26,163 nt of DNA, taken from positions 1-26,163 of IMG/VR virus record IMGVR_UViG_3300025103_000135; one strand, written 5' to 3'. This DNA comes from a virus. Taxonomy: Duplodnaviria > Caudoviricetes. The notes beneath the pieces were generated by a model, which ran no database searches, was not told where the DNA came from, and saw only the letters and a program-made list of their open reading frames with translations. A program made the position numbers and the translations under genes. Below are positions 323-24,637 of the stretch, in pieces. How positions within the stretch are numbered: position 1 is the first letter of the stretch; the number at the start of each line of letters is the position of its first letter.

Positions 323-484
323 ATGATGAATGACTTGGAATGGATGAAGGTGTTCGGGGTTAATGGAGGCGTGCTTGCCACTGTTTCACTCTCGGACTTT
401 GAGTTAGTTCTGAAAATACTAATGCTGCTCCTTACTTGTATTTGGACAGCCGTAAAAATAGTTAAACTACTAAAAGAAGAATGA
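323..484 (+). CDS. 53-aa membrane protein, holin-like (not in ORF track)
   Basis: Hand translation MMNDLEWMKVFGVNGGVLATVSLSDFELVLKILMLLLTCIWTAVKIVKLLKEE; GGAG just upstream; hydrophobic helix with charged tail; stop overlaps next ATG (ATGA 481-484). Confidence 0.7.
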   Translation: MMNDLEWMKVFGVNGGVLATVSLSDFELVLKILMLLLTCIWTAVKIVKLLKEE

Positions 485-702
485 AAGAAACTATAAAGAC
501 CAAGATCGTCAGCCGAAAACTCTGGGTAGCCATTGGTGGTCTATTGACCGTGGCTGCAACTGAATGGCTGAACCTATCACCCGAACTAACCGAGCAGATT
601 GTCGGTGCAATTATCATCATCGTCCCGGCTTACGTTGGTTCGCAAAGTATTGTGGACGCAATGAAGGAGTATTCCAGGAAGGATAACCCACCAACCAGCT
701 AG
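481..702 (+). CDS. Holin-like protein, two TM segments
   Basis: SRKLWVAIGGLLTVAA and IVGAIIIIVPAYVG hydrophobic segments, basic N-terminus, charged C-terminus. Confidence 0.7.
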   Translation: MKETIKTKIVSRKLWVAIGGLLTVAATEWLNLSPELTEQIVGAIIIIVPAYVGSQSIVDAMKEYSRKDNPPTS

Positions 703-879
703 ATGTGGGCGGGGATAATCAAATCATTGCTAGAATGGTTTTCAGGATTCCTGAAGGCCGAGATAAAACAGGATGTTAAGGGAAGCGATGCAGAGACTGA
801 GCCTGAGATTCGCAATCGTATGCGGTCTTCTTTTCGGAGGAGGCTGCGGGACGACGAGAGTCGTGTTCGTAAAGACTGA
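703..879 (+). CDS. 58-aa protein, possible i-spanin-like partner (not in ORF track)
   Basis: Hand translation MWAGIIKSLLEWFSGFLKAEIKQDVKGSDAETEPEIRNRMRSSFRRRLRDDESRVRKD; starts right after holin stop; amphipathic N-terminal helix; overlaps the lipoprotein gene. Confidence 0.5.
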   Translation: MWAGIIKSLLEWFSGFLKAEIKQDVKGSDAETEPEIRNRMRSSFRRRLRDDESRVRKD

Positions 880-1018
880 CTCTGACGTTGTAAGAATCGG
901 TCCAAACGTGAGCGGCAAGGTTTACTTCCGCAAGGGAGGCGAATGGGTTTTGAGCAAGAACAAGGTGAAGCTACCAGAAGGCTGGTACGCTGGATCATTG
1001 GGTGACGAAGAAGAGTAA
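788..1018 (+). CDS. Small lipoprotein, o-spanin-like
   Basis: MQRLSLRFAIVCGLLFGGGC: basic n-region, hydrophobic h-region, lipobox-like GGC. Alternative start at 773. Confidence 0.6.
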   Translation: MQRLSLRFAIVCGLLFGGGCGTTRVVFVKTDSDVVRIGPNVSGKVYFRKGGEWVLSKNKVKLPEGWYAGSLGDEEE

Positions 1019-5538: not shown

Positions 5539-7842
5539 ATGGCGATATTTGGGCAGTACACAGGGCAACGGGTGAGTCCACTTCCGAGTGGATTCTTGGG
5601 TGCGGCAATGCAGCAGGCTGCTCAAACGCAAAAGGGTTTGGAGCGGGTTGGCGACACAATTGGTGATGCGTTGAAATCGTATGCTGCACGCAAGGAAGAG
5701 TCTGAGACGGTGGATGGATTGATCCACGGTCAGGCGCAAAAGGCTATTGAGTTAAAGACATTTCTTGAGGGTGATAAACCTGTCCAGTCCTTCGAGGAAG
5801 GGCCGCTACCTGAAGGCGCGTCTGTGAACCCTGAACTCACTGGTCAAATGAGAGAAGGGGGTCGGCTTGCTCAAAATGAATCAATGGCAACATGGGACAG
5901 CGGTGACGCGGGTAGCGTTGTTACTACACCCTCACCCTTCAGCCAGAAGACTGAACTGCTTTATGAGATAGCCGGTGATAAGAAGCTGGTAGACAAATTC
6001 CTTTCTAATGACGCGACTCTTGCACAGAAGAAAGGGTTGCTTGCCAATCTGCAAATGTATAATTCCAAGCTGGACGATTACTCCAAGCGTGCGGCTATTG
6101 AGGAGCATCGCTTTAGGAAAGGTCAGCGTGATGCGTATGCATCATCTTACGGTGCAGGTCAGAATTTACAGCCAACGCAAATACCTGCAAGAACGGTTGA
6201 GGATACGACTACAACAGAGTTAGCTACCAAGGAAGAGATGGATCGGTTGAGGCACATGCAGGAAACTGGGATTAATCCGGTGACCGAGCGTGACGCAATA
6301 GGTTATGATGACGCTAAGTTTAGCCCTGAAGAATTTGATAAGCTGGAGAGGTACTGGGCTGGCGATCCTACAGAAGTCCCTCAACAGCGACCGCCCGACC
6401 TATCGAACTTTGATCCTGTTGCGGCAGAAAGATCAATAGTCGAATTACCTGAAGCAGAGGCTGCCGAGATTGCCAAGAAGCTCGATTACTATAACGCAAA
6501 GGTTAAGCCTGTGCATGACGACCGGCTGGCCGTACACGCTGCCCGAAGGAATGAGATTGATGGTGTTATTGAAAAGTTGGAAAAGAGAAAAGTTGAACAG
6601 GATGTTAAGCTGTTAGTGTTTAACAGCAAACCTGAAGTTAAGAAGTTACAGGGCTTAATTGATAATGCGAATAAGTACATTAATAACCCAGACATAGCCG
6701 CCTCCACCAAAAAGAATCTCAATATTGTTAAGAACGCTCATCAGAAGAAGCTCGATGCTCTGAAAAAGGATGCAGGCGTTATTGCCCCACTTGATTATAG
6801 CCGTGGGGTTGAAGAGATGATAGGCAAACTTGCGAATCATTTGAATGCTAAACCAAAGTTAGAGGACTCCGCCAAGCAGGTCACCGAGGAGGCAGATTAC
6901 AGCCTGCCTGAAGGCGGCTACGCGACAGGGCCGTTGGTGGAGACTGAAACGACTACCCGCGAAATACCTGCTGAGACTATCCCTGCTGAACCTGTTGACC
7001 GTAAGGCTGCACACATGAAAGCGTTCATTGAGCAGCGTGGTCAGATGACACCTGAGTATCAGCAGATGTTTGATAAGCTGTATCCTGAAGCGGGTATTAT
7101 TAGTCAGCCTGTTCCGGGTGTTCCGGGTGCTACGGCCTTATTTGATACCAAAGGTAAGTTCCTTCAGGTTGTTGCACCTCCAACACTGTCAGCGACAGAG
7201 AGGGCCGCTGTTGCTGCAATCACCTTCACGCCGAACACAGGCTTTACGGGAATTGCTCCTTCAAAAGAAGAGGCTGTTAAAATGCGTGATTTAATTGCCA
7301 CATCCAATGAGGTTAATGAAATGATGGATGACCTTATGGAAATGGCTAAAGAGGGGGAGGTTGAGTGGGTCGGCCCGAAGAAGGCAAGGGCAAAGGCAAT
7401 GATTGCTACTCTTGTGGGCAAGATGCGTATCCCGTTAACGGGCGGTGGGCCGCTTACTCTTGAGGAGCGTAAATATATACAGGAAAATTTATTTACTGAT
7501 CCGTATGATTGGAAGACATGGGCTTCTACGAGCAAGTCACAAATAGAGACAGTTAAGTGGATGATGACTAACTCCGTTTCTAAAAAAGCTAAAGTCCTTG
7601 GCCTGACACCTGTTGGCACCCAATCCGCCCAAGCCGGTGGTGCGCCTACTCGCCGTGCTTACACTGGAACTAAATTCACTTCACCTCGCGCAAGCAGCCC
7701 TGCACCTGCGCCTGTTGCCCCTGCGCCTGTTGCACCTGCACCTGTTGCACCTGCACCTGTTGCACCTGCACCTGAAAGGGATTGGGATGCGCTGGAAAGG
7801 CAGTTAAATATTATCCGTGATATGTTGAAGGACAAGAGATAA
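5539..7842 (+). CDS. Putative internal virion / ejection protein 2 (767 aa)
   Basis: AGGAG upstream; helical/coiled-coil composition; middle gene of the small-medium-large ejection trio. Confidence 0.6.
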   Translation: MAIFGQYTGQRVSPLPSGFLGAAMQQAAQTQKGLERVGDTIGDALKSYAARKEESETVDGLIHGQAQKAIELKTFLEGDKPVQSFEEGPLPEGASVNPELTGQMREGGRLAQNESMATWDSGDAGSVVTTPSPFSQKTELLYEIAGDKKLVDKFLSNDATLAQKKGLLANLQMYNSKLDDYSKRAAIEEHRFRKGQRDAYASSYGAGQNLQPTQIPARTVEDTTTTELATKEEMDRLRHMQETGINPVTERDAIGYDDAKFSPEEFDKLERYWAGDPTEVPQQRPPDLSNFDPVAAERSIVELPEAEAAEIAKKLDYYNAKVKPVHDDRLAVHAARRNEIDGVIEKLEKRKVEQDVKLLVFNSKPEVKKLQGLIDNANKYINNPDIAASTKKNLNIVKNAHQKKLDALKKDAGVIAPLDYSRGVEEMIGKLANHLNAKPKLEDSAKQVTEEADYSLPEGGYATGPLVETETTTREIPAETIPAEPVDRKAAHMKAFIEQRGQMTPEYQQMFDKLYPEAGIISQPVPGVPGATALFDTKGKFLQVVAPPTLSATERAAVAAITFTPNTGFTGIAPSKEEAVKMRDLIATSNEVNEMMDDLMEMAKEGEVEWVGPKKARAKAMIATLVGKMRIPLTGGGPLTLEERKYIQENLFTDPYDWKTWASTSKSQIETVKWMMTNSVSKKAKVLGLTPVGTQSAQAGGAPTRRAYTGTKFTSPRASSPAPAPVAPAPVAPAPVAPAPVAPAPERDWDALERQLNIIRDMLKDKR
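7699..7773 (+). repeat. 15-bp tandem repeat encoding (PAPVA)x4 linker
   Basis: CCTGC(A/G)CCTGTTGC(A/C) units read directly. Confidence 0.9.
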
Positions 7843-10800
7843 TGCCTGAAATATTCCTGCCTCACAGGAACGTGATACTTGAGTTTCCCGATGAAATGGG
7901 AGACGACGAAATTAAGGCTGCCATCGATAAGGAATACCCGATGACCGGCGAAGAGGTTGCCGGTCACATGATGTTAGACCCGGATTGGTTTAACAACGAC
8001 ATGACGCTTGACGAGTACAAGCGTTACCGGGAATGGAAGAATGAGCAATCGATGGGGGTTTCTGAATTTGCCTCGGCTGCCGGTGGTGCTTTTAAGCAGA
8101 TTGGTGGTGAAGTTGTTGGTGCGTTAGGTGAGTTGGCCACTTCGCCACTTGAATTCGCTAGGTCAGTTCCTTCTGGGCTTGGGGTAGGCACTCTGGATAT
8201 GTGGCATTTAGGGAAGCAGATTGTTAACCACTTTAGTAAGGCTGAAGACACTTACGATGATTTTCTCTCTGGCCGAAAAGACACTGAAGCCCGAAGGGCT
8301 GAGTACGATAAGCAGCTTGAAAAAGACATGGCTGCGGAGCGTGATAAAATTCAATACTTCAGCCAGATCAGGGAAGAGCTAATTGAGGAGTCACCTAACC
8401 CAGAGGCGACAAGAGGGCAAGCCAACGTCCTAGACCCTTCACTTCCTTTCGGCGGTTTCCTCGGTAAATCATTTACTAAAGCAGCCTCGAAGGTCGCCGC
8501 AACTGCAACCGGCAAGGCAGCTTCTAAGGTTGGCCGAGGCATGTATAGGGCAGGCGACACACTGGGCGAGATTGGTGAAGGCGCACGCGATGTCACGTCA
8601 AGAGCCTTTACCGGGGCAACAGGAGTGACACCTGAGACAGGTCGTGCGCTGGCTGTTGGCGCAGGATTAGGTGGTGGCGTTATGGCTGCTGGTGCGCCTG
8701 TCGTAGCCGGTGCCTACGGTGCCACTAAAGGGCTTCAGGTTGGCGGTAGAGTGCTTGCAGAGGCTGGCGAGGGTCTTCAGAGGGGGCTGGGCCGTGAAGG
8801 CTTCTTTGGCGGTGCTGCGGCCCGTTTAGAGGGCAAGCAGGGCTATGGCCTGGCAAGGACTCTTAGCTACGGCGACCCACTGCTGGAGCTAGGTGCTGGA
8901 GCAGCCGGTGGCATGGCTGCCGGTGGTGTAGTAGGTATGGGCCTCGGTGGATTAGCAGACGGCTGGGAAGGTGCTGCCAGTGGCCTCGGAGGGGGCATAG
9001 CACTAGGTGGATTCGGTGGAGGCATCGCAAGGGGCGTAGAGGGCGTTACAGGGGCCGCTATGAGGGCCAAGCGAGCCAAGGATGTGGACTTTTATATGCG
9101 TAACCTGAGTGACTCTGATAGAGCCATGATGCAGGGTTACATTGACAAGTACGGCAAGGATCAGGCTGCCACTATATTTGATGTTACTAGGATTTTCAGA
9201 GGGCCGCTTGGTGATGCCAGCGTTAAGTTTATTAATGATCCAAAGGCTGAACGGGGATTTGTCCCTGACATGAAGTCAGCCGAAGGAATACCAACTCTGG
9301 TAGTTAACCTAGCAAAGGCTGATAGTCACTACACAATCGGCCATGAGCTATGGCACGGCCTTACAAAGATCGAGCAGTTGCAACCGATGGCTGACGCGAT
9401 CCGAACAGAGATTGCAGGTATGTGGTCTGAAGGAAAGCTGTTGCAGGAAGGATTGATACCCGAAGCCCAGCTTGAAAATTTTTTCAATGATTACGTTAAA
9501 AAGCTGAAGCCGAGTGACCGGCCATCGGAATCTTCTGTTGCTACAAGAGAAGGCAGGGCTAAATACATTGTTGATGAAATTGCTGGTGATCATATGGCAA
9601 TGGTTATTACGGGTAAGAAGGGTAAGAAGTATGACCGTATGATGCGCGGCTTCGATACCCCTCTTCGCAAGGTGATCGATGAGCAGGTAATGAAGCAGAC
9701 CGGCGGTGCGATTAATAATGCCATTGCGAAGTTAAGCCAGATAGGCGTTACACCCGGCAAGTCGATGCTCTTCCCTGACATGGACAAGACCAGCCCGGTA
9801 GTGGGGGCCATGCTGCGTGACATGGTTCGCAGCAGAAAGAACCTTGGCGAACTGGTCGAGGCAACTGACAAGACGATTACTACCGCCATTAAGAAGAAAG
9901 ACTTTAAACATCATCAAGTAGAACTTGAGCGGCTTAACATGCTGAAGGATGACGGCAAGGGTGGTCGTGTGATGAAGAATGACAAGGACATTGCCGCCGA
10001 GGAGGCTGCAAGTGATTCTGCCATGAAGAATATTCTGGAGAAAGGGGGGCCAGATGGAATGCGGATTGAAACGGAGACGAAAGACGGGACTACGGTCGAG
10101 GTTATTCGAGGCACCCGGTTCAGCCCGGAACAGATCAGTGAGATTCAGGCTAACTCTACGATCCTTCCGACCACTCGTCAGAATGTGGAGGCGTTTAATA
10201 ACGCTGTTGAGAATGGACTGATCACAGACATGACGTACTACGCTGCTACCACCCGGCGTAAGAACAGGCTGACCGGGCTTTTCACCAGCAAGTATTCGTC
10301 AGGCATCAAGAAGAGTAAGCGTGCTGTGCTGCCTTATACGATTGAGGTATCAAATGCCGGTAACATATTTGTGCGTGCAATCGATTGGACAAAGCTCTGG
10401 ACTGACACAGCTAACATGTCTTTCGCCAAGAAGTTGGGCCTCTGGGATAATGATCATGCTGCATTCATTCACGAGTTTCAGGAGTACCTGACTAACCTTG
10501 CTTCTGATGATCCGGTTAAAAGCAAAAAACTTTTCGGGCAAAACAAGGCTGACTTCTTTCAGGAACTTTTGATGAAGAAGGAAAAGGGTGGAGGTAAATA
10601 CACCAAGAACTTTCGCTTGGATCGTATGGACGGCTTACAGCCTACCGGCGAGAGGGCCAAGATGAGTGAGGATGCCTACCAGTTAAGCAAGGATCGCTTC
10701 ATGGTTGATGTGGGTGATGCAATACCGGACAAGGTTTCAGTTGAATTTATACCGGGCAAGGCAACAGGGTTTTTAGAGAGACTGATCGGTGCGCCAATGT

Positions 10801-13800
10801 TAGTGCGTGAGCAATATCATAACGACATGATTCAGGCACACATCAATCCTGAAACAAATAAACTGCACATACTAGAGGAACTAAAGATTGAACATGAAAT
10901 TGCCACACGTCCATCAGCCTATTTAAATTCTGCTGGTCAACTTGAGATTAATCCATCGATGATAATCAAGTTAGCCAAGGGTACTACCCGTTCGGAAGCG
11001 TTGGTAGCCTCCAACCTATTTGGCCTGTACGCTCATCAGGAGGGGGTTGGGGGTTATAAGCCTGCTTACAAGCGAAGCAAAGGGGCGAATGCGTTCCGCA
11101 TAGACATTGGCCGTGAGCTTACAGAAAAAGACATTGACGTGATCCTCAAAAGGGTCGAGGCTGACCAATCAGGAGGGGCAGGTGACATTGCCCTTTTCCC
11201 GACAGAAACTGGCGTGGACATTGTTCATCTCGGTTTCAACGATGCTATAAAATACGGTAGCGTGTATGAGTCACTATGGGCTGCCCTAGAAACGGAGAGT
11301 TACGCAGGTTCTGCTATAGATAAGTTTAGGGCAGGCGATACAATTTACGAAACTAATAACTGGAAAGAAAATCGAAATGGCGAAAATTATAAGGAAGGGG
11401 CGTTACTGCACGGCGAGAGAGTTGGAGGAGTCCGACCCGATATATTCCGAAGGGTGGACAGTCGGATCGGTGACCCCATTAGGGACGTCTACCGAAAGTG
11501 GGAATCAGAAGGGTACGGCGACTCCCCCAGAGAAGGCAGAAGGCACGGAGCCACCGAACTCCAGCCAGTAACTGCCAAGTCGAAGAACGGTTATGATGTA
11601 CCCGTGCTGCGTGTTAACAACGCGACACACGATGGGGTGCCAAAACCTAAAGACTCTTCAAAGTGGGGGGAGGCTCAGTGGCGCGACTATCTTGAACGCG
11701 AGCAATTAGCTGACCAGCTTCAATCAGAATCACCCAACAAAGGCGTTAGCCCTGATGAATGGGTGCAACAACTTCAGACGCGCCTTGACGGGGTGTCGAT
11801 GACAGAACTTCCACCTCACCCATCTCGTTTGCATGAGTGGGTGCAAGACCCCAGCAAGTTGGCTGAGTATATAAGTGATGCCTATGCGAAGAACCCTGAT
11901 CTGGTTTTAAAGAGCAAGGAGGGTCTTGAGTCTGTTCGCCAGATGCACGAGCTTGCTCGTCAAGGCAAGCTGCCAGTTGAGGCGACTGCACTGAATTACT
12001 TCTGGGGATTCTTATCAAGAATGCTTGGCCCATATGATCAGGAGGCAGGCTGGATTCGCATGGTTAGCAACCCGAAGTTCATGGAGCAACTTTACAAGTC
12101 TATTGATGGCGAGTTCAGTATGCCACGAGGTGAATACTGGACACCTGAAAAAGTTGTGGCTGCGGAGGGCTGGAAGAATGTTAGAGGCAAGCAAAGTGTC
12201 AGCGATAAGCGTTGGAAGCTGGCACAGGATATGGCAGATCGCCGTAACCGTGAGCAGAAAGGCACATGGGTTGAGTTGGTTTACCGTGTGACAAAAGGTC
12301 AGCAGGCCCGGTCACATGAATCGGCTGGCATGAATGCACTCCAGAACATAAACGGGTTTCACTCGATGCTGGCTAGATGGAACGGGAGATGGAATGACGT
12401 TAACAGGGTTTTAAATGATTCAAGATTGACCGGGCCACAGATGCGCGAGGCGATGTGGTCGCAGGGATTATTATCAGCAGGCATTCACGACAAGGTGAAT
12501 AGCTTCGTGATACTGACGCTGGCTCGTGATGATGTGGTTATTGTTGACCGCTGGCAGATGATTAATTTCTGGGAGGCGCAGTTAAAGGCTGCTGTCGAGG
12601 CCAAGGAGGGGCCGGGGGCATCTCTTTACATAACCAAGAAAGGGGATGTTCCGGTTGAGAAGACGGGCTGGTCGGATACTGTGCAGAAACAACTGAGCGG
12701 CATGGCTGGCTCACATGCCCTGTATCGCGTCCTAGAAGGTGCCTTGGGTGATGTTTCAAGCCGAATGGATGCTCATCTACCTGCTGAGTTGCAGGGTTCG
12801 TTTAACAGCGTCTCAGGCACGCACTGGGTGACATGGAATATTGCCAAGAATGAGCCGGTGGGGCATAGCTCGCTGGATGTGGTTAATCGTTTTGCACTGG
12901 AGCATGGATTCCCTGATACACCCAAGAAGCGGAAGGAATTTATTAAGCGATTCACTGTAGCCAAGAAGTTTACTGAGCAGGCACGATCCGAGGGAGGGTT
13001 TAAGCGTTTTGAAGTTGAGAAAGGTAAGCCGACTGTCACTACCCGCTTCATGCCTGACGTAGGCGGCCAAGACGCCTTGGGCATGTTCAGTGCAGCCGAG
13101 CGTGCCACTGTTGACCTGAAGCAGGAGAAGGGTAGTGCCTCGCAGATGCTGGCGATGATCAAGAAGGCTGGCGTTAAGGATGAGGAGTTGCAGGCACTTG
13201 GTCTGGACAAATTCCTTGAGGGCAATCGTCGCGTCACCAGGGACGAGATTATCGATCACCTCGTGGAGAATAGTATTACTGTTGAGGAGACGGTGTTGGG
13301 GGGTGGCGAGGCAGTGCCGCGTTACGAGTCTGGGGTGAGAGAGGATACAAACGTATGGGTGGTTCACGACGGAAGCGGCGGGTTTGTTGATGTGCCAAAG
13401 AGAATTGCCTCAAATGCCGCAGAGGCACAGTCCTACGCTGACGCTCACCCCGAACTTACCCGTCACCGAAGCATGATGCGGCCAGAAACCAAACACTCCT
13501 CCTACGTCGAACCCGGCGCAGTCGAGGGCAGCTACCGGGAGTTGTTGCTGCGGTTGCCGAAGAATGACCCGCCACTTCTTTTGGCGAAAAATACCGACGG
13601 AAATATTATCTCCACAATGAGGCTGCCGAACACTGATCCACAGACGAAGGCAGAATACATTTCAGAAGCGTCATCATCCGACCTTGCGCGAGAAAACCCC
13701 GGCCTTACGTTTGAGTATATTGAAGGCAAGGCCGACTACAAGGGAGGCCACTACGGCGACACCCCGAACACCCTCGCCCATGTCCGGTTCAACGACCGCA

Positions 13801-14951
13801 CATCTGAGCATGGTAAGACGCTATTCATCGAGGAGATACAGAGCGATTGGCATCAGGAGGGGCGTAAGAAGGGGTATCAGGGTGATGCGCTTGAATTGTT
13901 CAGAAAGAGGGTTATGGACGCAGCTAGACGGGACGGTGGAACAGATATGGCGGTGGTCGAGAAAGCGTTCAATCATTTGTTAGAAGAACCACGAACCACT
14001 GACGCAAGGCCAACTACTAGGGAGTGGCAAATCCTGCAAAATGCTATTGGTAAAGAGGGTAAAGAGCGGATTGATCTTAACTTTTTCCATGACCGAAACG
14101 ATTCTAACCTAGTCCCAGACGCACCCTTCAAGACCTCGTGGCACGAACTGGCGATGAAACGCATGATCAAGTATGCCGTTGATAATGGTTACGATGCCAT
14201 CAGTTGGACGAAGGGTGAGACGCAGTTTCAGCGGTACGGTTCCTCAGAGATTGCATGGGTGAAGGACGGTGACGGTTGGAAGGTCAAGGCTACTGAGCAA
14301 CGAGGTAGCGAGGCAGACGGCATTAACATTGAGGCTGCTGCCCGTGCAGAAGGTATACTCAAGGAAAGCGGCGACACGATCACCAGCAAGGAACAGTTAC
14401 ACGCCCTAATCAAGGAGACGGTGATGGAGCGTGAACGCGGCCAATGGTCACCGGAGAATTTCGAGAAGCAGGTTGATAAGCTAACCGACCGCACTTGGGA
14501 GAGAATGCAAAACGAGGATGCCGGGACATCGCTACCGCGCAAGGAAGGCATGAAAGGTTTCTACGACCGTATGCTGGTCAAGATGAAGACGTGGAAGAAG
14601 CTGGGGCTAAAGGTGGAGACGGGTGAGATTAGCAAGTTAACACCTGAACAGAAGGAGTTCCTAGAGGGTGTTGACCTGAAGCCCCTCCCCGTCCACATCG
14701 TCAAGCTCACCCCGGAGGTTAAAGCGAAGGTGCTGGACACCGGCATTGCACGCTTCATGCCTGATGCCGCAGTACCGGGTGCCGAGCGTAACAGTATAGG
14801 CTGGTCGATGCTGTTGACCAAGGCAGGCAACTGGAGGGTGTACGGCCCGGACGGTGTACTGGCTGGGGTTGCAGGCAGCAAGCAACGTGCTGAACAAATC
14901 TTTAAGACCAAGTACAAGCGGGAGTTGCGGAAGAGGGAGAAGGCCAAATGA
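7842..14951 (+). CDS. Giant modular internal virion (polyvalent-type) protein, 2369 aa
   Basis: Gly/Ala-rich hydrophobic stretch (~aa 265-400), HELWH zincin motif (aa 501-505), HhH-GPD-like motif (aa 1547-1571), FIEEIQSDWHQEGR module, three RFMxD linkers; last of the ejection trio. Confidence 0.8.
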   Translation: MPEIFLPHRNVILEFPDEMGDDEIKAAIDKEYPMTGEEVAGHMMLDPDWFNNDMTLDEYKRYREWKNEQSMGVSEFASAAGGAFKQIGGEVVGALGELATSPLEFARSVPSGLGVGTLDMWHLGKQIVNHFSKAEDTYDDFLSGRKDTEARRAEYDKQLEKDMAAERDKIQYFSQIREELIEESPNPEATRGQANVLDPSLPFGGFLGKSFTKAASKVAATATGKAASKVGRGMYRAGDTLGEIGEGARDVTSRAFTGATGVTPETGRALAVGAGLGGGVMAAGAPVVAGAYGATKGLQVGGRVLAEAGEGLQRGLGREGFFGGAAARLEGKQGYGLARTLSYGDPLLELGAGAAGGMAAGGVVGMGLGGLADGWEGAASGLGGGIALGGFGGGIARGVEGVTGAAMRAKRAKDVDFYMRNLSDSDRAMMQGYIDKYGKDQAATIFDVTRIFRGPLGDASVKFINDPKAERGFVPDMKSAEGIPTLVVNLAKADSHYTIGHELWHGLTKIEQLQPMADAIRTEIAGMWSEGKLLQEGLIPEAQLENFFNDYVKKLKPSDRPSESSVATREGRAKYIVDEIAGDHMAMVITGKKGKKYDRMMRGFDTPLRKVIDEQVMKQTGGAINNAIAKLSQIGVTPGKSMLFPDMDKTSPVVGAMLRDMVRSRKNLGELVEATDKTITTAIKKKDFKHHQVELERLNMLKDDGKGGRVMKNDKDIAAEEAASDSAMKNILEKGGPDGMRIETETKDGTTVEVIRGTRFSPEQISEIQANSTILPTTRQNVEAFNNAVENGLITDMTYYAATTRRKNRLTGLFTSKYSSGIKKSKRAVLPYTIEVSNAGNIFVRAIDWTKLWTDTANMSFAKKLGLWDNDHAAFIHEFQEYLTNLASDDPVKSKKLFGQNKADFFQELLMKKEKGGGKYTKNFRLDRMDGLQPTGERAKMSEDAYQLSKDRFMVDVGDAIPDKVSVEFIPGKATGFLERLIGAPMLVREQYHNDMIQAHINPETNKLHILEELKIEHEIATRPSAYLNSAGQLEINPSMIIKLAKGTTRSEALVASNLFGLYAHQEGVGGYKPAYKRSKGANAFRIDIGRELTEKDIDVILKRVEADQSGGAGDIALFPTETGVDIVHLGFNDAIKYGSVYESLWAALETESYAGSAIDKFRAGDTIYETNNWKENRNGENYKEGALLHGERVGGVRPDIFRRVDSRIGDPIRDVYRKWESEGYGDSPREGRRHGATELQPVTAKSKNGYDVPVLRVNNATHDGVPKPKDSSKWGEAQWRDYLEREQLADQLQSESPNKGVSPDEWVQQLQTRLDGVSMTELPPHPSRLHEWVQDPSKLAEYISDAYAKNPDLVLKSKEGLESVRQMHELARQGKLPVEATALNYFWGFLSRMLGPYDQEAGWIRMVSNPKFMEQLYKSIDGEFSMPRGEYWTPEKVVAAEGWKNVRGKQSVSDKRWKLAQDMADRRNREQKGTWVELVYRVTKGQQARSHESAGMNALQNINGFHSMLARWNGRWNDVNRVLNDSRLTGPQMREAMWSQGLLSAGIHDKVNSFVILTLARDDVVIVDRWQMINFWEAQLKAAVEAKEGPGASLYITKKGDVPVEKTGWSDTVQKQLSGMAGSHALYRVLEGALGDVSSRMDAHLPAELQGSFNSVSGTHWVTWNIAKNEPVGHSSLDVVNRFALEHGFPDTPKKRKEFIKRFTVAKKFTEQARSEGGFKRFEVEKGKPTVTTRFMPDVGGQDALGMFSAAERATVDLKQEKGSASQMLAMIKKAGVKDEELQALGLDKFLEGNRRVTRDEIIDHLVENSITVEETVLGGGEAVPRYESGVREDTNVWVVHDGSGGFVDVPKRIASNAAEAQSYADAHPELTRHRSMMRPETKHSSYVEPGAVEGSYRELLLRLPKNDPPLLLAKNTDGNIISTMRLPNTDPQTKAEYISEASSSDLARENPGLTFEYIEGKADYKGGHYGDTPNTLAHVRFNDRTSEHGKTLFIEEIQSDWHQEGRKKGYQGDALELFRKRVMDAARRDGGTDMAVVEKAFNHLLEEPRTTDARPTTREWQILQNAIGKEGKERIDLNFFHDRNDSNLVPDAPFKTSWHELAMKRMIKYAVDNGYDAISWTKGETQFQRYGSSEIAWVKDGDGWKVKATEQRGSEADGINIEAAARAEGILKESGDTITSKEQLHALIKETVMERERGQWSPENFEKQVDKLTDRTWERMQNEDAGTSLPRKEGMKGFYDRMLVKMKTWKKLGLKVETGEISKLTPEQKEFLEGVDLKPLPVHIVKLTPEVKAKVLDTGIARFMPDAAVPGAERNSIGWSMLLTKAGNWRVYGPDGVLAGVAGSKQRAEQIFKTKYKRELRKREKAK

Positions 14952-15611: not shown

Positions 15612-15613
15612 TT

Positions 15614-15632
15614 TTGGACAAATTTTGGACAA
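15614..15632 (+). repeat. attP left arm: tandem integrase arm-type sites TTGGACAAATTTTGGACAA
   Basis: Identical 19-mer also at 15853-15871, same orientation, on the other side of the tRNA fragment. Confidence 0.8.
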
Positions 15633-15736: not shown

Positions 15737-15785
15737 CAGATTGTGATTCTGGTTGTCGCCGGTTCAAGCCCGGTCGATCACCCCA
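15737..15785 (+). other. attP core: 3' half of tRNA-His(GTG)
   Basis: CAGA-TTGTGAT-TCTG anticodon arm, GCCGG-TTCAAGC-CCGGT T-arm, CGATCAC acceptor strand, C discriminator, CCA; no D-arm or 5' acceptor strand upstream; 172 bp before integrase. Confidence 0.92.
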
Positions 15786-15852
15786 TTTTTTCTTCTGTTA
15801 TACCGTGCTATTCTGCACATCAGCTCTAAACGCTGCCCCTCGGAAATAGCCC

Positions 15853-15871
15853 TTGGACAAATTTTGGACAA
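15853..15871 (+). repeat. attP right arm: tandem integrase arm-type sites
   Basis: TTGGACAAATTTTGGACAA, identical to 15614-15632. Confidence 0.8.
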
Positions 15872-15957: not shown

Positions 15958-17220
15958 ATGAAGATCGAAAAATACATAGGCCGCAACGGCAAGCCGGTTG
16001 ACAGCAAGCGCAAGGTGTCTGCGAAGGACGGCACCACCGCAGTGATCGAGTTGCGCGGTAAGAACTGGCGCACCCGCTTCGCTGCCAACGGCAAGCACCA
16101 CCAACTCAACCTCCGCACCACGGATGAACGTACAGCAGCAGCCACTGCTCTGGACAAAGTCCGGGCAGCCTCCCGCGAACAATGGGACTTCGTTCATGCC
16201 GGTCAGAACAAGAAGGGTGTCATCACGATTGGTCAGTGCATTCAATTATTTATCGAACAGGATGTGCCGACTCAGACCAAGCGCGTTTCTCGTGAGGCCA
16301 GCAATCGTTTACGCACGCTGATTCGTACAGCCCTCCAGATTGAACGGAAACAGGTTAAGGATGCTGAGTCAGGGGAATGGGTTGAGCCAGCGATTGACAA
16401 GCTACCTGCTACAATCCTCGACCGTCAACTGGTTAAGAAGTTTATGAAGAATAGGCTCTTAGGTTACCCGGAAGCGGGTGAGGCACGCGAGAGTCGTATT
16501 CGTGGTGCAAACAGTTTGCTAGGGGATGCGAAGAGTTTATTTTCCAAGCGAAACATCGTGGACAAACTCTATCCCGGCCTGCCTGACATAAGCACATTCG
16601 TTGAAGCACCGCACCAGAAGTGTACTCCCGTTGAATTCCTGTACGAGAAGATCGATGGCCAGGTGGAGACACTGAAAGCTAACCTCCCTGCGTTGAAAGA
16701 GTCAGACCCCTCGGCCTACTTGTTATTCCAGTTGGCTGCGGGGTGTGGCTTGCGGAGGACAGAGGCTTTACAGGCTCGGAAGGAATGGATCACCTTTTAC
16801 AAGGGGAAACGGGTGCTTTACGTTCAGCCCACTGAGACGTGGGTGCCGAAGGGTCGTAAAATTCGCCGGGTGCCGTTAAGCGAATCGGTGTATGATCAGA
16901 TTCTTTTACTCAGTGATGACTCTGAGTTCATCATCCCTGCATACAGTGGTAATGATCGCAAGCAGGGGATTGGCAGAAGACTGTGTAAGTGGTTCTTGTC
17001 TATCGGGTGGACTGAAAAGAAAAAGACGCATGAGTTGCGGAGGTGGTTTGGCAGTGAAGTAAGTCACCAGATTAAAGACCTGTTCGCGGTGCAGCGTTTA
17101 CTGGGTCATGCATCTATTACCACTACCGAGAGTTATTACGCTGATATTGTTAAGCAGCCTGAGTACGAAATTAACCTGACCGCCGAGCAGCCTGTTAACA
17201 AACAGGCGGCGGTTGGGTAA
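15958..17220 (+). CDS. int: Tyrosine integrase
   Basis: GCGLRRTEAL (R), PKGRKIRRVPL (K), THELRR (HxxR), LLGHASITTTESYY (H, Y); AGGAG upstream; next to attP. Confidence 0.95.
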   Translation: MKIEKYIGRNGKPVDSKRKVSAKDGTTAVIELRGKNWRTRFAANGKHHQLNLRTTDERTAAATALDKVRAASREQWDFVHAGQNKKGVITIGQCIQLFIEQDVPTQTKRVSREASNRLRTLIRTALQIERKQVKDAESGEWVEPAIDKLPATILDRQLVKKFMKNRLLGYPEAGEARESRIRGANSLLGDAKSLFSKRNIVDKLYPGLPDISTFVEAPHQKCTPVEFLYEKIDGQVETLKANLPALKESDPSAYLLFQLAAGCGLRRTEALQARKEWITFYKGKRVLYVQPTETWVPKGRKIRRVPLSESVYDQILLLSDDSEFIIPAYSGNDRKQGIGRRLCKWFLSIGWTEKKKTHELRRWFGSEVSHQIKDLFAVQRLLGHASITTTESYYADIVKQPEYEINLTAEQPVNKQAAVG

Positions 17221-17485: not shown

Positions 17486-17526
17486 ACTTATAGGCTTTTG
17501 TTGTGTTGATAAGTAGTATTTGTATT

Positions 17527-17543
17527 ACACTGTGCTACAGTGT
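17527..17543. promoter_or_regulatory. Operator-like palindrome ACACTGT-GCT-ACAGTGT
   Basis: Perfect 7-bp inverted repeat 19 bp upstream of the RHH start at 17563. Confidence 0.55.
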
Positions 17544-17562
17544 GTGTATTGGTTTTAACGCA

Positions 17563-17748
17563 ATGCCATTTCGCGATCCATCAATGAAGAGAGTCGGATT
17601 CTGGGTTACCGGCGACTTCCGCAAACGCCTCGCCAAGGAGGCCAAGAGGCGGGGCGTGAGTGTCTCGGACTTAATCAGGAACATGCTCAAGGATGAGATG
17701 GGGGAGTCTGACGATATTGGCAGTCAGAAAAAGAAGCCTTCTAAATAA
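17563..17748 (+). CDS. Ribbon-helix-helix (CopG/Arc-like) regulator 1
   Basis: KRVGFWVT strand, DFRKRLAKEAKRR helix, G-V-S-V-S-D-L-I-R turn/helix B signature; ATG 17563 preferred to GTG 17503. Confidence 0.85.
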   Translation: MPFRDPSMKRVGFWVTGDFRKRLAKEAKRRGVSVSDLIRNMLKDEMGESDDIGSQKKKPSK

Positions 17749-17780
17749 TAACCTGTTAACAATATAGTCTACTATTGTAC

Positions 17781-17833
17781 TTTACTTCTGGGCGGAGTCC
17801 GCCTTATAAGTAGCTCACCGGGCGGAGTCCGCC
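17781..17833 (+). promoter_or_regulatory. Candidate sigma70 promoter with two identical palindromic operators GGCGGAGTCCGCC
   Basis: Palindromes at 17791-17803 and 17821-17833; TTTACT (17781-17786) and TATAAG (17805-17810) flank the first with 18-bp spacing; strong SD (AGGAGAAAAGGAG) follows. Confidence 0.7.
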
Positions 17834-17862
17834 TGAAACTAATAGGAGAAAAGGAGCTAGTT

Positions 17863-18552
17863 ATGGAGAGTGTCAGTTTAATCATTTCAAATGCGTCTGC
17901 CCGGAAATTTGGGCATTTAAACTCCGAATCAAAACGCTACCTGATGGATGAGGTGGATAAGATTATATCGGATATGCCGATGGAGTGTGACACAGAAGAC
18001 CCGTGCCAGACCAACGCGCAGAACATAAAGCATTGCTCGCAGCATGGCTTGATAAACGAATCCTCCTTGCACTTCGCAAAGAGGCTAAGTCTGCTGGCCT
18101 TACTCCTGCTGAGTACGTTGAGCGGATTTTCTGCGAAGCCAGCGGCACCAAGCCGAGTCAACGCAAAGCTAATCGAAGCGGTATGCCAAGTGGAGTCGAA
18201 CGGGCGAGCCACGGCGATTGGAGACGGCGGTAAGGCTTCAGGCGCATTTCAATTCTGGCAGCCTACATGGCAGCACACCACGCAAATCCGTCAACGTGAC
18301 GGACTTCCCACCACATCCTACAAGGAGGGGTCTATAGACATTAAGTGGAGTCGCCTGTACGCTGTCAGCTATTTACAGTGGATCGAGAAATACATTCGTG
18401 ACCGAGGTGTAAAATACCCCACGGCAGGCCAGATATACATGGGCTACAACTGGGGTGTTGGTAATGCACGCAAGGTTAAATTCGATGTAAGCAAATCCCC
18501 GGCAACAACTCAACGTGCGATCCGAAAGATTGAGGCATGGTTGAAGAAGTAA
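17863..18552 (+). CDS. Lytic transglycosylase (SLT/lysozyme-like) with internal signal/TM segment
   Basis: Motif I VCQVES (E111), motif II GAFQF, motif III GYNWG; hydrophobic KRLSLLALLLLSTLSGFSA precedes the domain. Start uncertain (ATG 17863 with SD, or TTG 18049/18067). Confidence 0.75.
   Translation: MESVSLIISNASARKFGHLNSESKRYLMDEVDKIISDMPMECDTEDPCQTNAQNIKHCSQHGLINESSLHFAKRLSLLALLLLSTLSGFSAKPAAPSRVNAKLIEAVCQVESNGRATAIGDGGKASGAFQFWQPTWQHTTQIRQRDGLPTTSYKEGSIDIKWSRLYAVSYLQWIEKYIRDRGVKYPTAGQIYMGYNWGVGNARKVKFDVSKSPATTQRAIRKIEAWLKK
18003..18233 (+). CDS. Ribbon-helix-helix regulator 2, nested out of frame in the transglycosylase ORF
   Basis: Aligns with RHH1 using one gap: MP..R.........W........L.KEAK..G...............G (11 identities over 48 aa); GTG start, weak SD. 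Confidence 0.65.
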   Translation: MPDQRAEHKALLAAWLDKRILLALRKEAKSAGLTPAEYVERIFCEASGTKPSQRKANRSGMPSGVERASHGDWRRR

Positions 18553-18716
18553 CATTCAAAGTGGGCGACCGGGTGAAGCACAAGGATAACCCGGCAATTA
18601 AGGGACGCATTGTGGGCGATGCCTTTGGCAAGCCAGAAAAGCGAAACGTCAGGCTGCAATTAACTAACGGGCTACTCTTCGACGTGACCCCATACGCATT
18701 AAAAACATGGAAATAG
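18537..18716 (+). CDS. 59-aa SH3/KOW-like hypothetical protein (not in ORF track)
   Basis: Hand translation MVEEVTFKVGDRVKHKDNPAIKGRIVGDAFGKPEKRNVRLQLTNGLLFDVTPYALKTWK; fills the gap between neighbours. Confidence 0.65.
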   Translation: MVEEVTFKVGDRVKHKDNPAIKGRIVGDAFGKPEKRNVRLQLTNGLLFDVTPYALKTWK

Positions 18717-18907
18717 ATAAACAATTAGAAGCAATGCAACTCGTCTCCCGCAAACATGCGGCTGAGTTGATGGATTGCAGTATCCCGCACATCGACACTT
18801 TATTGAAGCGAGGCGACCTTGAGCCGATCCGAATAGGTTCGCAAGGGGTACGCATAACACTCGCTTCCCTCCAGCGGTTCATCGGCACCCCCACACCCCG
18901 CCGATGA
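18707..18907 (+). CDS. xis: Excisionase-family helix-turn-helix protein
   Basis: LVSRKHAAELMDCS..HI..LLKRGDLEPIRIG...VRIT...L..FI matches the Xis/HTH_17 pattern. Confidence 0.8.
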   Translation: MEIDKQLEAMQLVSRKHAAELMDCSIPHIDTLLKRGDLEPIRIGSQGVRITLASLQRFIGTPTPRR

Positions 18908-22226: not shown

Positions 22227-22406
22227 AAAGCATAGATGAAAATTTAGTGAAGATGGGTAAAGGGGATGCATTCAGGCCAATGTTTGGGGCTGCGTCAGGT
22301 TCCTGTTATCGGATTACGCCTGACTCAAGGAGGGTCAGGAGAAAGGCAGACAGGATGTTGAAGGCCGAGTTGCGTAGGGAATTTAAAAAACAATTTAAGA
22401 AATGAA
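22209..22406 (+). repeat. 19-bp direct repeat AAACAATTTAAGAAATGAA at 22209-22227 and 22388-22406
   Basis: Read directly; each copy spans a stop/start junction. Confidence 0.9.
22223..22405 (+). CDS. Basic hypothetical protein bounded by direct repeats
   Basis: ATGA coupling at both ends. Confidence 0.6.
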   Translation: MKSIDENLVKMGKGDAFRPMFGAASGSCYRITPDSRRVRRKADRMLKAELRREFKKQFKK

Positions 22407-22662
22407 CATAACAACTGTAGAACTAAAAACACTCGAAGCCTGTCAGTCGCCTCAAGATTGGCGCAAGGCGTGTGACGCAATCAAGGCAGTCCGTAATCAG
22501 GAGTATCCTGATGACTGGTGGAAGCGCGTTAAGCAGACCGGCCTGATGGATCGCATCATGCAACGGTGGGAAGGTTCATCCGAACTAGAGGTGATTCACC
22601 CTGAACCATCTCCAGAGGATTATGAGCCGAATCCGTATCACGGAACCTACTCAGAAGAATGA
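22402..22662 (+). CDS. Hypothetical protein
   Basis: ATGA coupling at both ends; ends EPNPYHGTYSEE. Confidence 0.65.
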   Translation: MNITTVELKTLEACQSPQDWRKACDAIKAVRNQEYPDDWWKRVKQTGLMDRIMQRWEGSSELEVIHPEPSPEDYEPNPYHGTYSEE

Positions 22663-23411
22663 GTCTTAAAGCATCAGCATGGGCATGGGATATGCCAGTT
22701 AACGGATTAACCAAGCTCGTGCTGCTTGCTATTGCCGATTACGCCGGGAGGGATAATGACTCCGCTTGGCCCTCAATGGACACCCTCGCAACCCGCTGCG
22801 GCATCAGCCGAATGACCGCCGTTCGGGCTATCCGTGAGCTTCAAGATAAGAAGCTGCTGGAGGTCGAATCCAGAGCCAATCGCACCAACTTATACCGCCT
22901 CCCAGTAGCCGATCCAGAGGGGTATCACAGTGATAGGGGGTATCACACAGATACTACGGTAGTACCACACAGTTACTCCGGTAGTACCACACAGATACCC
23001 AAACCAGTAAAGAACCAGTTAAGAACCAGTCATATACCAGAAAGTGAAGTTGAGGCTATCTACGATGCCTACCCTCGGAAGGTCGGCAGGCCGAATGCGC
23101 TGAAAGCAATTCGCAAGGCACTCAAACTCGAATCAGCCAAAAAGGAACACGGCTTGTCTTACCAAGCCTTGGTTGAAAAAACGAAACTATGGGCCACGGC
23201 CTGCGAACAACGAATTGCCGCAGAACCCGACTCCGCAAAATACATCAAACACCCAGCCACTTGGTTCAATCAGCAGTGCTACCTCGAACCCGCTACAGAG
23301 TGGGGCATCAAGGCAGCAGCCAAAACCGGCTTCGACCGGGACGCAGAACGAATCGCAGCCCAAGCCGACGAAGCGCACAAACGCATCATGGCAGAAATCG
23401 ACAATCTATGA
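22659..23411 (+). CDS. Phage replication initiator (N-terminal winged HTH)
   Basis: KLVLLAIADYA...AWPSMDTLATRCGISRMTAVRAIRELQ...NLYRL; C-terminal YPRKVG...YIKHPATWFNQ; iterons in the linker. Confidence 0.9.
   Translation: MSLKASAWAWDMPVNGLTKLVLLAIADYAGRDNDSAWPSMDTLATRCGISRMTAVRAIRELQDKKLLEVESRANRTNLYRLPVADPEGYHSDRGYHTDTTVVPHSYSGSTTQIPKPVKNQLRTSHIPESEVEAIYDAYPRKVGRPNALKAIRKALKLESAKKEHGLSYQALVEKTKLWATACEQRIAAEPDSAKYIKHPATWFNQQCYLEPATEWGIKAAAKTGFDRDAERIAAQADEAHKRIMAEIDNL
22922..23030 (+). repeat. Replication origin iterons inside the initiator gene
   Basis: GTA(T/C)CACACAG(A/T)TAC at 22940, 22962, 22984 (22-bp period), variant at 22922; then AACCAGT at 23002, 23013, 23024 (11-bp period). Confidence 0.85.
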
Positions 23412-23755
23412 TCAAAGACCATCAATGCCCCCACTGCCATACCGCCCTACAGGTCGAACTGCCTCACACTGACCCATACGGTCTTAACAGGCTCCATAGC
23501 ATCATTCACTGTGATACATGCTCCGGGCTAAAAGCTAAACTCATCAAAACGAACGACTACATCACAAGCATTACGAACGAGTTGCGTACAGCCGCCGATA
23601 CCGTAGCAATCGAAAAACTCTCAGGCAGCCTCAAGGCACACTACAGCGGCAGACAACGAATCCAAAAAAAACTCGATGACCGATTGCACACAAGTCGTCA
23701 AACTAGTGAGCAAAACAAACTCGACCAAAAGCCCCAAGGTCAATTACCTTGGTGA
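23408..23755 (+). CDS. Zn-finger protein, possible helicase-loader/replication accessory
   Basis: ATGA coupling at 23408; CPHC...CDTC then coiled coil; role inferred from position. Confidence 0.6.
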   Translation: MIKDHQCPHCHTALQVELPHTDPYGLNRLHSIIHCDTCSGLKAKLIKTNDYITSITNELRTAADTVAIEKLSGSLKAHYSGRQRIQKKLDDRLHTSRQTSEQNKLDQKPQGQLPW

Positions 23756-24107
23756 GGTAGGTGTAGAATACCTCGTTAATGTTGCGAGGATGGCTCCTAA
23801 GAGCCGCAAAGGAGAAGGAGGACAAATCATGCTAAGGGGAAATAGAAACGCTGTACGGCCAAAATCTGGCCAGTTGCACACATTCATTACAGCATCCGAA
23901 TGCGAAGGGTGCGGATGTCACGCAGTTTACAAGGAAACAGTGCGCGTAACCGCTGAACCGGGGCCACAACTTGAAGGCGCATTAGAAGCCTTCAGAGGTT
24001 CAATGCTGCTGCTACTACAGGAAGACTCAATCTGCGAAGAGTGCGAGGCCGAAAACCAAGAACAAACAGGCCAAGGCATCTGGCCGTGGGAGGCAGACGA
24101 ATTATGA
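23676..24107 (+). CDS. Zn-finger hypothetical protein
   Basis: CEGC...CEEC; true start probably later (ATG 23790 or 23829). Confidence 0.5.
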   Translation: MTDCTQVVKLVSKTNSTKSPKVNYLGEVGVEYLVNVARMAPKSRKGEGGQIMLRGNRNAVRPKSGQLHTFITASECEGCGCHAVYKETVRVTAEPGPQLEGALEAFRGSMLLLLQEDSICEECEAENQEQTGQGIWPWEADEL

Positions 24108-24637
24108 GCGAGGAGGTGTCTCTCGGCCCTGCCGCTGACCTAGCTGTCGTCGATAACGAAGGTCAAGCCATTCAGGTCGTGCAGCCTGACCGTGGATCAG
24201 GTAGCAGGATGCCATACGAGACGTACAGGACGGTCGTGCTGCTCTTACGAGAAGGCGTGCCTGTCGTGAAGGTGTCTGACCGCTTCGGAGTCGCCACAAC
24301 GACGATACACGAGATTAAAGCACGGCACGCTGAAATCATCCCGTCACACAAAGACCTGATGGCGCGTAAGTCCGAGAATTTGCGGGAGGTGCTGTCGGAT
24401 AAGATGGTTGAAGCTGTTGAATCTGGTCGCATGTCTCCTAATCAATATGCGTTCACCTACGGAACCGTTTCCCAGCACTATCGGGAGGAGACTGGGCAGA
24501 GTTCGACCAAATCTGAAAACATCCACCTTCACTTGGACAAAAACGACCTCGGTGAGCTACTTGGCGGCCTAAAATCTGGACAAACAGACGAAAAGTCTGT
24601 GTGTGTTGACGTAAATCCCCCAGAAAAACAGGAGTGA
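24104..24637 (+). CDS. HTH protein, probable terminase small subunit
   Basis: GVPVVKVSDRFGVATTTIHEIK HTH, helical middle, low-complexity tail; upstream of terL; ATGA coupling at 24104. Confidence 0.55.
   Translation: MSEEVSLGPAADLAVVDNEGQAIQVVQPDRGSGSRMPYETYRTVVLLLREGVPVVKVSDRFGVATTTIHEIKARHAEIIPSHKDLMARKSENLREVLSDKMVEAVESGRMSPNQYAFTYGTVSQHYREETGQSSTKSENIHLHLDKNDLGELLGGLKSGQTDEKSVCVDVNPPEKQE

What the first reader, a model, noticed from the sequence alone, without database searches (positions are those of the whole stretch)
17863..18552. RHH regulator gene overprinted inside a membrane-anchored lytic transglycosylase ORF
Seen: ORF 18003-18233 lies wholly inside ORF 17863-18552 in another frame and aligns with the upstream RHH (MPFRDPSMKRVGFWVTGDFRKRLAKEAKRRGVSVSDLIRNML vs MPDQRAEHKALLAAWLDKRILLALRKEAKSAGLTPAEYVERIF). 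The bases encoding the RHH helices also encode the signal/TM segment LSLLALLLLSTLSGFSA, and the SLT motifs ES/GAFQ/GYNWG are intact. Inference: dual coding ties a transcription factor to a periplasmic wall enzyme in the lysis-lysogeny region; possible roles are a SAR/secreted endolysin, superinfection exclusion or wall remodelling.
Basis: partly seen in the sequence, partly recalled or inferred. Interest (0 to 1): 0.75.

Follow-up and report, generated by a model that had tools for sequence, protein, structure and literature searches.

The report
Phage repressor hidden inside exported lysin
In a group of marine phages one stretch of DNA is conserved in two reading frames: one gives a small ribbon-helix-helix protein that likely represses transcription, the other gives the likely export signal of a cell-wall enzyme that is probably the phage's lysis enzyme, so the enzyme and its predicted brake share the same bases.

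Summary
The dual coding is real. The nested ORF 18003-18233 keeps its start position and an open frame in 10 of 11 distinct related loci that cover it (outer proteins 41-89% identical). Within one clade 18 variable sites are silent in the inner frame but change the outer protein, 3 do the reverse (p=0.0015). The inner protein belongs to a family of small, apparently stand-alone RHH proteins and is modelled as an RHH-type homodimer (0.48, best control 0.00). The outer protein is an SLT-family enzyme with invariant Glu111. The late cassette has a holin-like gene and spanin-like pair but no endolysin, so the best reading is an early-made exported endolysin whose transcript is capped by the nested repressor (0.45). 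One sister phage lost the RHH by an in-frame deletion, so the link is not obligatory. No expression data; host unknown.

The parts
17863..18552 (+). Outer gene, 229 aa: N-terminal domain, linker, internal signal segment, SLT-family domain
17863..17979 (+). N-terminal ~39-residue two-helix domain of the outer protein, no family match; kept in frame with the SLT in all relatives but L017
   Evidence: pN<pS (0.33/0.83 window vs L002; 0.29/0.64 L003 vs L015); helices 10-18, 21-36; no Pfam, PHROG or Atlas hit
17980..18075 (+). Outer-frame linker, predicted disordered, sequence dictated by the RHH frame from 18003 on
   Evidence: pLDDT<50 at 40-77; 9 of 9 variable sites in inner codons 1-29 are inner-silent, 8 change the outer residue
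18076..18135 (+). Internal signal segment of the outer protein (basic residues, Leu-rich core, likely cleavage site near Ser90/Ala91), written on RHH codons 25-44
   Evidence: cleavage inferred
18142..18480 (+). SLT (PF01464) lysozyme-like domain; invariant Glu111 at 18193-18195, invariant Gly120-Asp121
18003..18233 (+). Nested gene, 76 aa, GTG start without SD: RHH core (to ~18143) plus conserved, predicted disordered tail over the SLT's first motif
17563..17748 (+). Second, free-standing RHH gene, present only in the window's clade (window, L001, L008)
   Evidence: RHH_1 E 2e-4 above cut-off
17790..17834 (.). Two identical palindromes 30 nt apart just upstream of the outer SD; RNA hairpin or operator
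15958..17220 (+). Tyrosine integrase, directly upstream of the outer gene in most relatives
15743..15786 (+). attP-like core: 3' half of a tRNA (His-type anticodon read by eye), shared by six other lineage loci; L002 has a different core
   Evidence: (tRNA E 0.87, below gathering)
18707..18907 (+). Excisionase-like HTH_17 gene heading the recombination/replication genes that follow the overlap
323..1018 (+). Late lysis-like cassette without an endolysin: single-TM ORF, holin-like 481-702, overlapping spanin-like pair 703-879 / 773-1018
   Evidence: phrog_9987 holin E 3.6e-4; other three have no lysis family hit, spanin reading is inference

Best explanation
One stretch of DNA is conserved in two frames, encoding a CopG/Arc-type RHH protein that likely represses the early promoter upstream and, one frame over, the linker and likely cleavable signal peptide of an SLT-family wall enzyme that probably serves as this phage's exported endolysin. 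Shown: both frames are conserved and selected; the RHH frame dominates the shared bases; T at RHH third positions supplies the Leu core of the signal. Inferred: ribosomes start at 17863 (strong SD), Sec exports the SLT domain through the internal signal, and it would wait in the periplasm until the late holin collapses the membrane potential; a weaker SD-less start at 18003 makes small amounts of RHH, which would dimerise and damp the same transcript (enzyme, excisionase, resolvase, recombination and replication genes), capping the dose of a toxic enzyme. Likely history: two older genes slid over each other, the enzyme taking its signal from the RHH's other frame and the RHH extending its tail into the enzyme.
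For: Inner ORF intact with the same start in 10 of 11 loci; openness P 0.0008-0.004 per sequence; 18 vs 3 sites, p=0.0015; L003 vs L013 core pS/pN inner 0.31/0.01, outer 0.03/0.08; 4 of 4 variants seen inside the overlap core and first tail codons in the window clade are inner-silent. RHH: profile finds RHH antitoxin VapB26 first in PDB (E 0.0076, 27); 5 of 39 family members pass an RHH-type Pfam cut-off, among them overlap-type P0014, 29 of 39 hit one at E<=0.05; homodimer score 0.48, best control 0.00, with antiparallel pairing of residues 10-17. Signal selected: T at inner position 3 in codons 27-41 is 8/15, 10/15, 7/15, 6/15 against 0.13-0.26 background; hydrophobicity exceeds synonymous recodings at P<=0.001 in 4 of 4 lineages. 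SLT fold, invariant Glu, pS 0.09-0.18 vs pN 0.02-0.03. No endolysin beside the holin-like gene in the window, G002 or G004, none among 79 proteins scanned. Precedent: Lys44 and early-transcribed Tgl (PMC6116005, PMC7150955).
Against: No expression, activity or binding data. No operator common to all lineages was found; the window's palindromes may be RNA hairpins. L002 keeps integrase, an att-like site and the enzyme but has no RHH in 31.5 kb, and run X7 carries the same allele junction, so the RHH is dispensable for export or lysis control there. The gene sits among early genes far from the holin. The 2369-aa virion protein has a PHROG 'endolysin' match (no muralytic PDB match), 22402-22662 a weak one (E 0.041, 83), and an unrecognised endolysin cannot be excluded; all records are incomplete (39-80%). 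Openness of the outer linker alone is weak evidence (P 0.35-0.84 per lineage). P0017 and P0018 keep an RHH tail that cannot encode the ES motif in register.
Confidence: 0.45

Rival explanations
1. Same dual coding, but the exported enzyme is a lysogen-expressed or early accessory wall remodeller (superinfection exclusion, or loosening the wall early in infection), and lysis uses another enzyme; the RHH sets a low steady dose.
For: Position between integrase and excisionase among early genes in every relative covering it; a distant 148-aa signal+SLT gene also lies among small early-type genes next to an integrase-like ORF (L018, 35); no HTH_3 repressor in G000-G002 (117), so the RHH could be a lysogeny regulator.
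Against: Leaves a holin-like and spanin-like cassette without any recognised endolysin; the RHH-less sister phage still looks temperate.
Confidence: 0.3
2. The RHH works as an antitoxin-like partner: its conserved, disordered tail binds a protein (the outer N-terminal domain, the unexported enzyme or a neighbour) rather than only DNA.
For: Tail is selected in its own frame (9 vs 1 sites, p=0.02; a Ser codon-family switch at codon 72); best PDB hits are RHH antitoxins; tail pLDDT<50.
Against: L002 has the N-domain without RHH and L017 has the RHH without the N-domain (18, 54, 87); the catalytic domain is likely exported away from a cytoplasmic RHH. No heterocomplex was modelled.
Confidence: 0.12
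3. The segment is an uncleaved anchor, giving a membrane-tethered protein with a cytoplasmic N-domain that senses or recruits partners, or a SAR endolysin.
For: The segment is internal, after 45-75 residues in most lineages; the N-domain is conserved.
Against: Best 19-residue hydropathy 0.9-2.5, only 1.46 in the window; Leu-rich with 3-8 small residues of 19; small-x-Ala followed by polar residues in most lineages. Distant relatives are plain signal+SLT proteins (L018, P0007).
Confidence: 0.1
4. The inner ORF is a shadow of the outer gene, an assembly artefact, or one half of a frameshift fusion.
For: No SD at the inner start; the window's own inner protein has no significant Pfam hit and no single-sequence homologue was found.
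Against. ATG/GTG exchange at the same codon; L013 has an in-frame stop directly before the inner ATG, which blocks an upstream fusion.
Confidence: 0.03

Closest known systems
phiX174 genes D/E (PMC8227390, section 2 read)
   Same: Nested gene; T at third positions of one frame becomes second-position T of the other and yields a Leu-rich membrane segment tied to lysis.
   Different: E is a wholly new peptide; here both partners have old folded domains, and only a signal/linker and a tail are new.
lambda Rz/Rz1 nested spanins (PMC6116005, passages)
   Same: Fully embedded gene in a phage lysis function.
   Different: Both are envelope proteins that work together; here a cytoplasmic DNA-binding protein is nested in an exported enzyme, in the early region.
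Exported endolysins Lys44 (fOg44) and Kayvirus Tgl (PMC6116005, PMC7150955, passages)
   Same: Signal-peptide wall enzyme; Tgl is a lytic transglycosylase with an AXA site transcribed from an early promoter.
   Different: Their signals are N-terminal and single-coded, hosts are monoderm; here the signal is internal, preceded by an extra domain, and dual-coded; activity untested.
CopG/Arc-type RHH proteins (PF01402, PF07878; VapB26, AvtR, CopG, Arc)
   Same: Strand-helix-helix pattern, predicted intertwined dimer.
   Different: Own subfamily with an N-terminal basic arm and Trp-x-Asp strand end, plus a 28-residue tail imposed on the SLT; target unknown.
Engineered alternate-frame insertions, OAFI (10.1101/2024.11.07.622342; abstract and introduction)
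   Same: [quoted passage not shown]
   Different: Natural, and the inner gene's bases supply a needed part of the outer protein.

Membership tests
SLT-family lytic transglycosylase (PF01464) | Profile score above curated cut-off | tested here: met
   29.9 vs 21.3 bits; relatives 29.7-31.9
SLT-family lytic transglycosylase (PF01464) | Catalytic Glu and lysozyme-like fold | tested here: met
   Glu111 invariant in 19 of 19; top folds phiKZ gp144, Slt, MltE, prob 1.0 but E>0.001 in PDB; E 5.6e-6 to phage SLT models
SLT-family lytic transglycosylase (PF01464) | Non-hydrolytic cleavage giving anhydro-muropeptides | not testable with these tools
   Invariant Asp121 leaves a muramidase reading open (inference)
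RHH DNA-binding proteins | Profile match to an RHH family | tested here: inconclusive
   Window protein itself below cut-off; 5 of 39 relatives pass, one of overlap type; PDB profile E 0.0076 (27)
RHH DNA-binding proteins | Homodimer with antiparallel inter-chain ribbon and two helices | tested here: met
   Predicted only: score 0.48, best control 0.00; mark reached by 20 of 30 solved pairs and 1 of 23 single chains; runs agree in >=96% of contacts, pLDDT >=71; may pass by likeness to solved RHH dimers. The monomer model showed no strand (55).
RHH DNA-binding proteins | Sequence-specific binding to an operator | not testable with these tools
   No common operator found
Exported (signal-peptide) endolysins | Sec signal with basic, hydrophobic and cleavage regions | tested here: inconclusive
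   Hydrophobic core selected, small-x-Ala sites by eye; internal position; no SignalP available
Exported (signal-peptide) endolysins | Holin present and no other endolysin | tested here: inconclusive
   Holin-like hit E 3.6e-4; none found among 79 proteins scanned, genomes incomplete, two doubtful PHROG hits
Exported (signal-peptide) endolysins | Needed for lysis, activated by loss of membrane potential | not testable with these tools
   needs culture
SAR endolysins | N-terminal, uncleaved, Gly/Ala-rich segment (feature partly recalled) | tested here: not met
   Internal and Leu-rich; 6 of 19 Gly/Ala/Ser in the window, 3-8 across 19 sequences
De novo overprinted gene (RHH as the new frame) | New frame has no homologues outside the overlap and is the less constrained | tested here: not met
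   33 weaker hits, nearly all short and matching only the first ~50 positions; RHH frame is the more constrained

The most novel reading that the evidence does not exclude
A self-limiting lysis fuse: the phage's only endolysin is made early and exported by a signal peptide that is the other reading of its own repressor's helix B, so one transcript makes the wall enzyme and the factor that caps it, and frameshifts that destroy the brake also destroy export.
Probability: 0.3. Interest if true: 0.82.

Novelty: new variant of a known kind. Interest (0 to 1): 0.66.

Why it matters
Nested phage genes known from lysis modules pair envelope proteins or add a new short peptide. Here two old folded families, a transcription factor and a wall enzyme, are interlocked over 231 nt and kept so across proteins only 41-50% identical, with natural loss variants on both sides (no RHH; no N-domain) as ready controls. 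It shows how a signal peptide can arise from a regulator's third codon positions, gives a candidate for the missing endolysin and regulator of an uncultured temperate marine podovirus clade, and warns that gene callers list only one of the two genes.

Tried and rejected
Single-sequence search with the inner protein: nothing. INPHARED phages: no match to the outer protein; integrase hits only ~30%, no host information. Genome collection: two short SLT-motif matches in Acidimicrobiales, not this locus; host unknown. Viral scan with P0010: nothing. PDB sequence search with the outer profile: only chance-level hits, E>=0.09. Foldseek with the inner monomer: RHH proteins on top but E>=0.54. Atlas: no usable hit for the N-domain; the inner protein was not searched. 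No RNA holder listed, so expression is untested. Promoter scan: one antisense site, 2.0 expected by chance. No conserved structure at the inner start (only L015 has a strong hairpin). Internal outer starts 18049, 18067 and the L003-clade Met in the linker are not conserved. Frameshift fusion rejected. Earlier scan notes: nothing in three look-ups. Dropped before the 10-of-11 count: L001/L007 (identical to the window), duplicates L009, L011, L020, L023-L026, L016 (does not reach the overlap), distant SLTs L006, L018, L019, L021, L022. L014 was left out (outer gene cut off); P0036 (711 aa) was left out.

Full report
Observation. ORF 17863-18552 (229 aa) contains ORF 18003-18233 (76 aa) at an offset of 140 nt, so the third base of each inner codon is the second base of an outer codon. 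The outer protein has an SLT domain at 94-206 (PF01464, E 4.3e-7, above cut-off). The window's inner protein alone gives only weak hits, so the case rests on relatives.

Context. The window is part of a temperate podovirus-like genome with nearly all genes on one strand: SU10-type capsid and portal in sister records, a 2369-aa virion protein, an att-like tRNA 3' half at 15743-15786, integrase, then (window clade only) a 47-aa ORF and a free RHH gene, the overlap, an excisionase-like gene, a RusA-like resolvase, exonuclease and replication initiator. The six runs holding half or more of the words are marine metagenomes, two of them possibly the source. The host is unknown.

The inner frame is a gene. 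Scans gave 11 distinct non-identical loci of the close family that cover the region. Ten have the inner ORF, 74-80 codons, starting at the same position with ATG or GTG; one (L002) lacks it. They form four deep lineages (window, L003 clade, L015, L017) with outer identities of 41-50%. Given each outer protein and random synonymous codons, the inner frame would be open with P 0.0008-0.004 (0.03-0.08 for the first 48 codons); the third frame has 5-9 stops. Among seven L003-clade sequences there are 31 variable sites: 18 inner-silent but outer-changing, 3 the reverse, 7 changing both, 3 silent in both (18 vs 3 p=0.0015; sites in one codon are not independent). In inner codons 1-29 all 9 are inner-silent. 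Four variants in the window clade from laid contigs are inner-silent and outer-changing too. Seven further outer proteins without DNA (P0002, P0004-6, P0008-10) can encode 39-45 of 45 RHH columns in register against a shuffled maximum of 31-35, and in P0009 and P0010 the outer residues force ATG or GTG at the inner start (some alignment rows may be their own partners). Contigs X3 and X6 bridge the overlap without gaps.

The inner protein is an RHH. Its profile finds the RHH antitoxin VapB26 first in the PDB (E 0.0076) and 38 proteins among 1.84 billion representatives, 5 strong overlap-type and 33 weaker, nearly all short and matching only the first ~50 positions. Their DNA was not seen, so 'stand-alone' is inferred from length and the missing tail. 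Of 39 members scanned, 5 pass an RHH-type Pfam cut-off and 29 hit such a family at E<=0.05 (that NikA, ParG, RepB-reg, CcdA and RelB are RHH folds is recalled). The monomer model had two helices and no strand, but two copies of residues 1-55 gave score 0.48 against a best control of 0.00, with residues 10-17 paired antiparallel across chains; this mark was reached by 20 of 30 solved pairs and 1 of 23 single chains, runs agreed in at least 96% of contacts, pLDDT at least 71, and the pass may reflect likeness to solved RHH dimers.

The outer frame is a gene too. The SLT part is under purifying selection (pS 0.09-0.18, pN 0.02-0.03 in the L003 clade), Glu111 is invariant in 19 of 19 and the model matches lytic transglycosylases. 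The hydrophobic segment is selected on top of the RHH: T at inner position 3 is 6-10 of 15 at codons 27-41 against 13-26% background and 1-4 of 21 at codons 2-22, and the segment is more hydrophobic than synonymous recodings of the RHH at P<=0.001 in 4 of 4 lineages. This is the mechanism described for phiX174 D/E (PMC8227390, section 2). It is short and Leu-rich, follows basic residues and mostly ends in small-x-Ala before polar residues, so I read it as a cleavable signal; this is inference, no predictor was run. That translation starts upstream of the RHH is inferred: openness of the linker is weak evidence (P 0.35-0.84), but no internal start is conserved, the N-domain shows pN below pS, distances to the inner start differ by multiples of three, and L002's loss of 30 codons keeps N-domain and signal in frame. 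L003-clade and L015 also have an SD-led Met at residue 28-29, and L017 appears to use only that start, with a relic of the N-domain upstream.

History. Plain signal+SLT proteins exist (L018, 148 aa; P0007, 156 aa; 145-150-aa models), as do short RHHs. The RHH core lies on the enzyme's linker and signal, the RHH tail on the enzyme's first motif: each gene's extension is written on the other. L002 and P0007 fall inside the window's clade in the SLT tree (97/100), and L002 does so in the N-domain tree (97/99), so absence of the RHH is most simply a loss; run X7 carries the L002-type junction. L002 keeps a full integrase and a different att-like core and has no RHH core hit. Conversely P0017 and P0018 have tails that cannot encode ES in register, possibly enzyme decay.

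Function. Window 323-1018 holds a holin-like gene (E 3.6e-4) and an overlapping spanin-like pair but no endolysin; the same holds for G002 and G004. Window, G001 and G002 together close the gene order into a circle (one tail-gene segment seen only in G002), and no endolysin family was hit among 79 proteins scanned apart from a PHROG 'endolysin' match in the virion protein (no muralytic PDB match) and one at E 0.041. Exported endolysins that wait for the holin, and an early-transcribed secreted transglycosylase, are described (PMC6116005, PMC7150955; passages read). No HTH_3 repressor was found in G000-G002. Hence the best reading: exported endolysin plus nested autorepressor (0.45). Against it: early position, no operator shared by all lineages, the RHH-less sister phage, and no expression data.

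Novelty. Seven full-text searches listed no paper describing an RHH nested in a transglycosylase; the two aimed at it directly returned none. The library lacks most subscription papers and no supplements were read. PMC5810103 and PMC8850804 (search listings only) report antisense overlaps in bacteria. Verdict: real, a new variant of nested phage genes, interest 0.66.

Noticed in passing
window 703-879 / 773-1018: Second overlap in another frame: spanin-like pair, the second with a lipoprotein-type signal (motif recalled); no family hit.
   Followed up: partly
window 15612-15632 and 15851-15871; L002 1520-1545, 1765-1785: Repeats flanking the att-like core, replaced together with the core in L002 (which has a different tRNA-like anticodon loop); likely integrase arm sites with switched specificity.
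   Followed up: partly
window 17820-17834; L002 3955-3977: Hairpin just before the outer SD is kept in L002 with changes on both arms and a different loop length, favouring RNA structure over an operator; the window has two copies.
   Followed up: partly
L003 3685-3696; L005 518-529: Palindrome ATTG-N4-CAAT over a -35-like hexamer in the short integrase-SLT gap of the L003 clade; candidate RHH operator; outer ATG there has no SD.
   Followed up: no
window 17526-17544 and 17759-17779: Further inverted repeats upstream of each RHH-containing gene in the window clade.
   Followed up: no
window 18214-18240: An 18-nt in-frame insertion/deletion in the SLT near the inner stop segregates among close relatives (L008, X5, X6) and shifts the inner stop by one codon.
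   Followed up: partly
window 22659-24637: Replication initiator followed by several strongly overlapping ORFs (23173, 23189, 23676, 24041) with zinc-ribbon and HTH hints.
   Followed up: no
window 7842-14951: 2369-aa virion protein with a PHROG 'endolysin' match at 1963-2148 but no Pfam or muralytic PDB match.
   Followed up: partly
L015 1609-1625: Strong hairpin covering the inner start codon (z -3.5), not seen in other lineages.
   Followed up: partly
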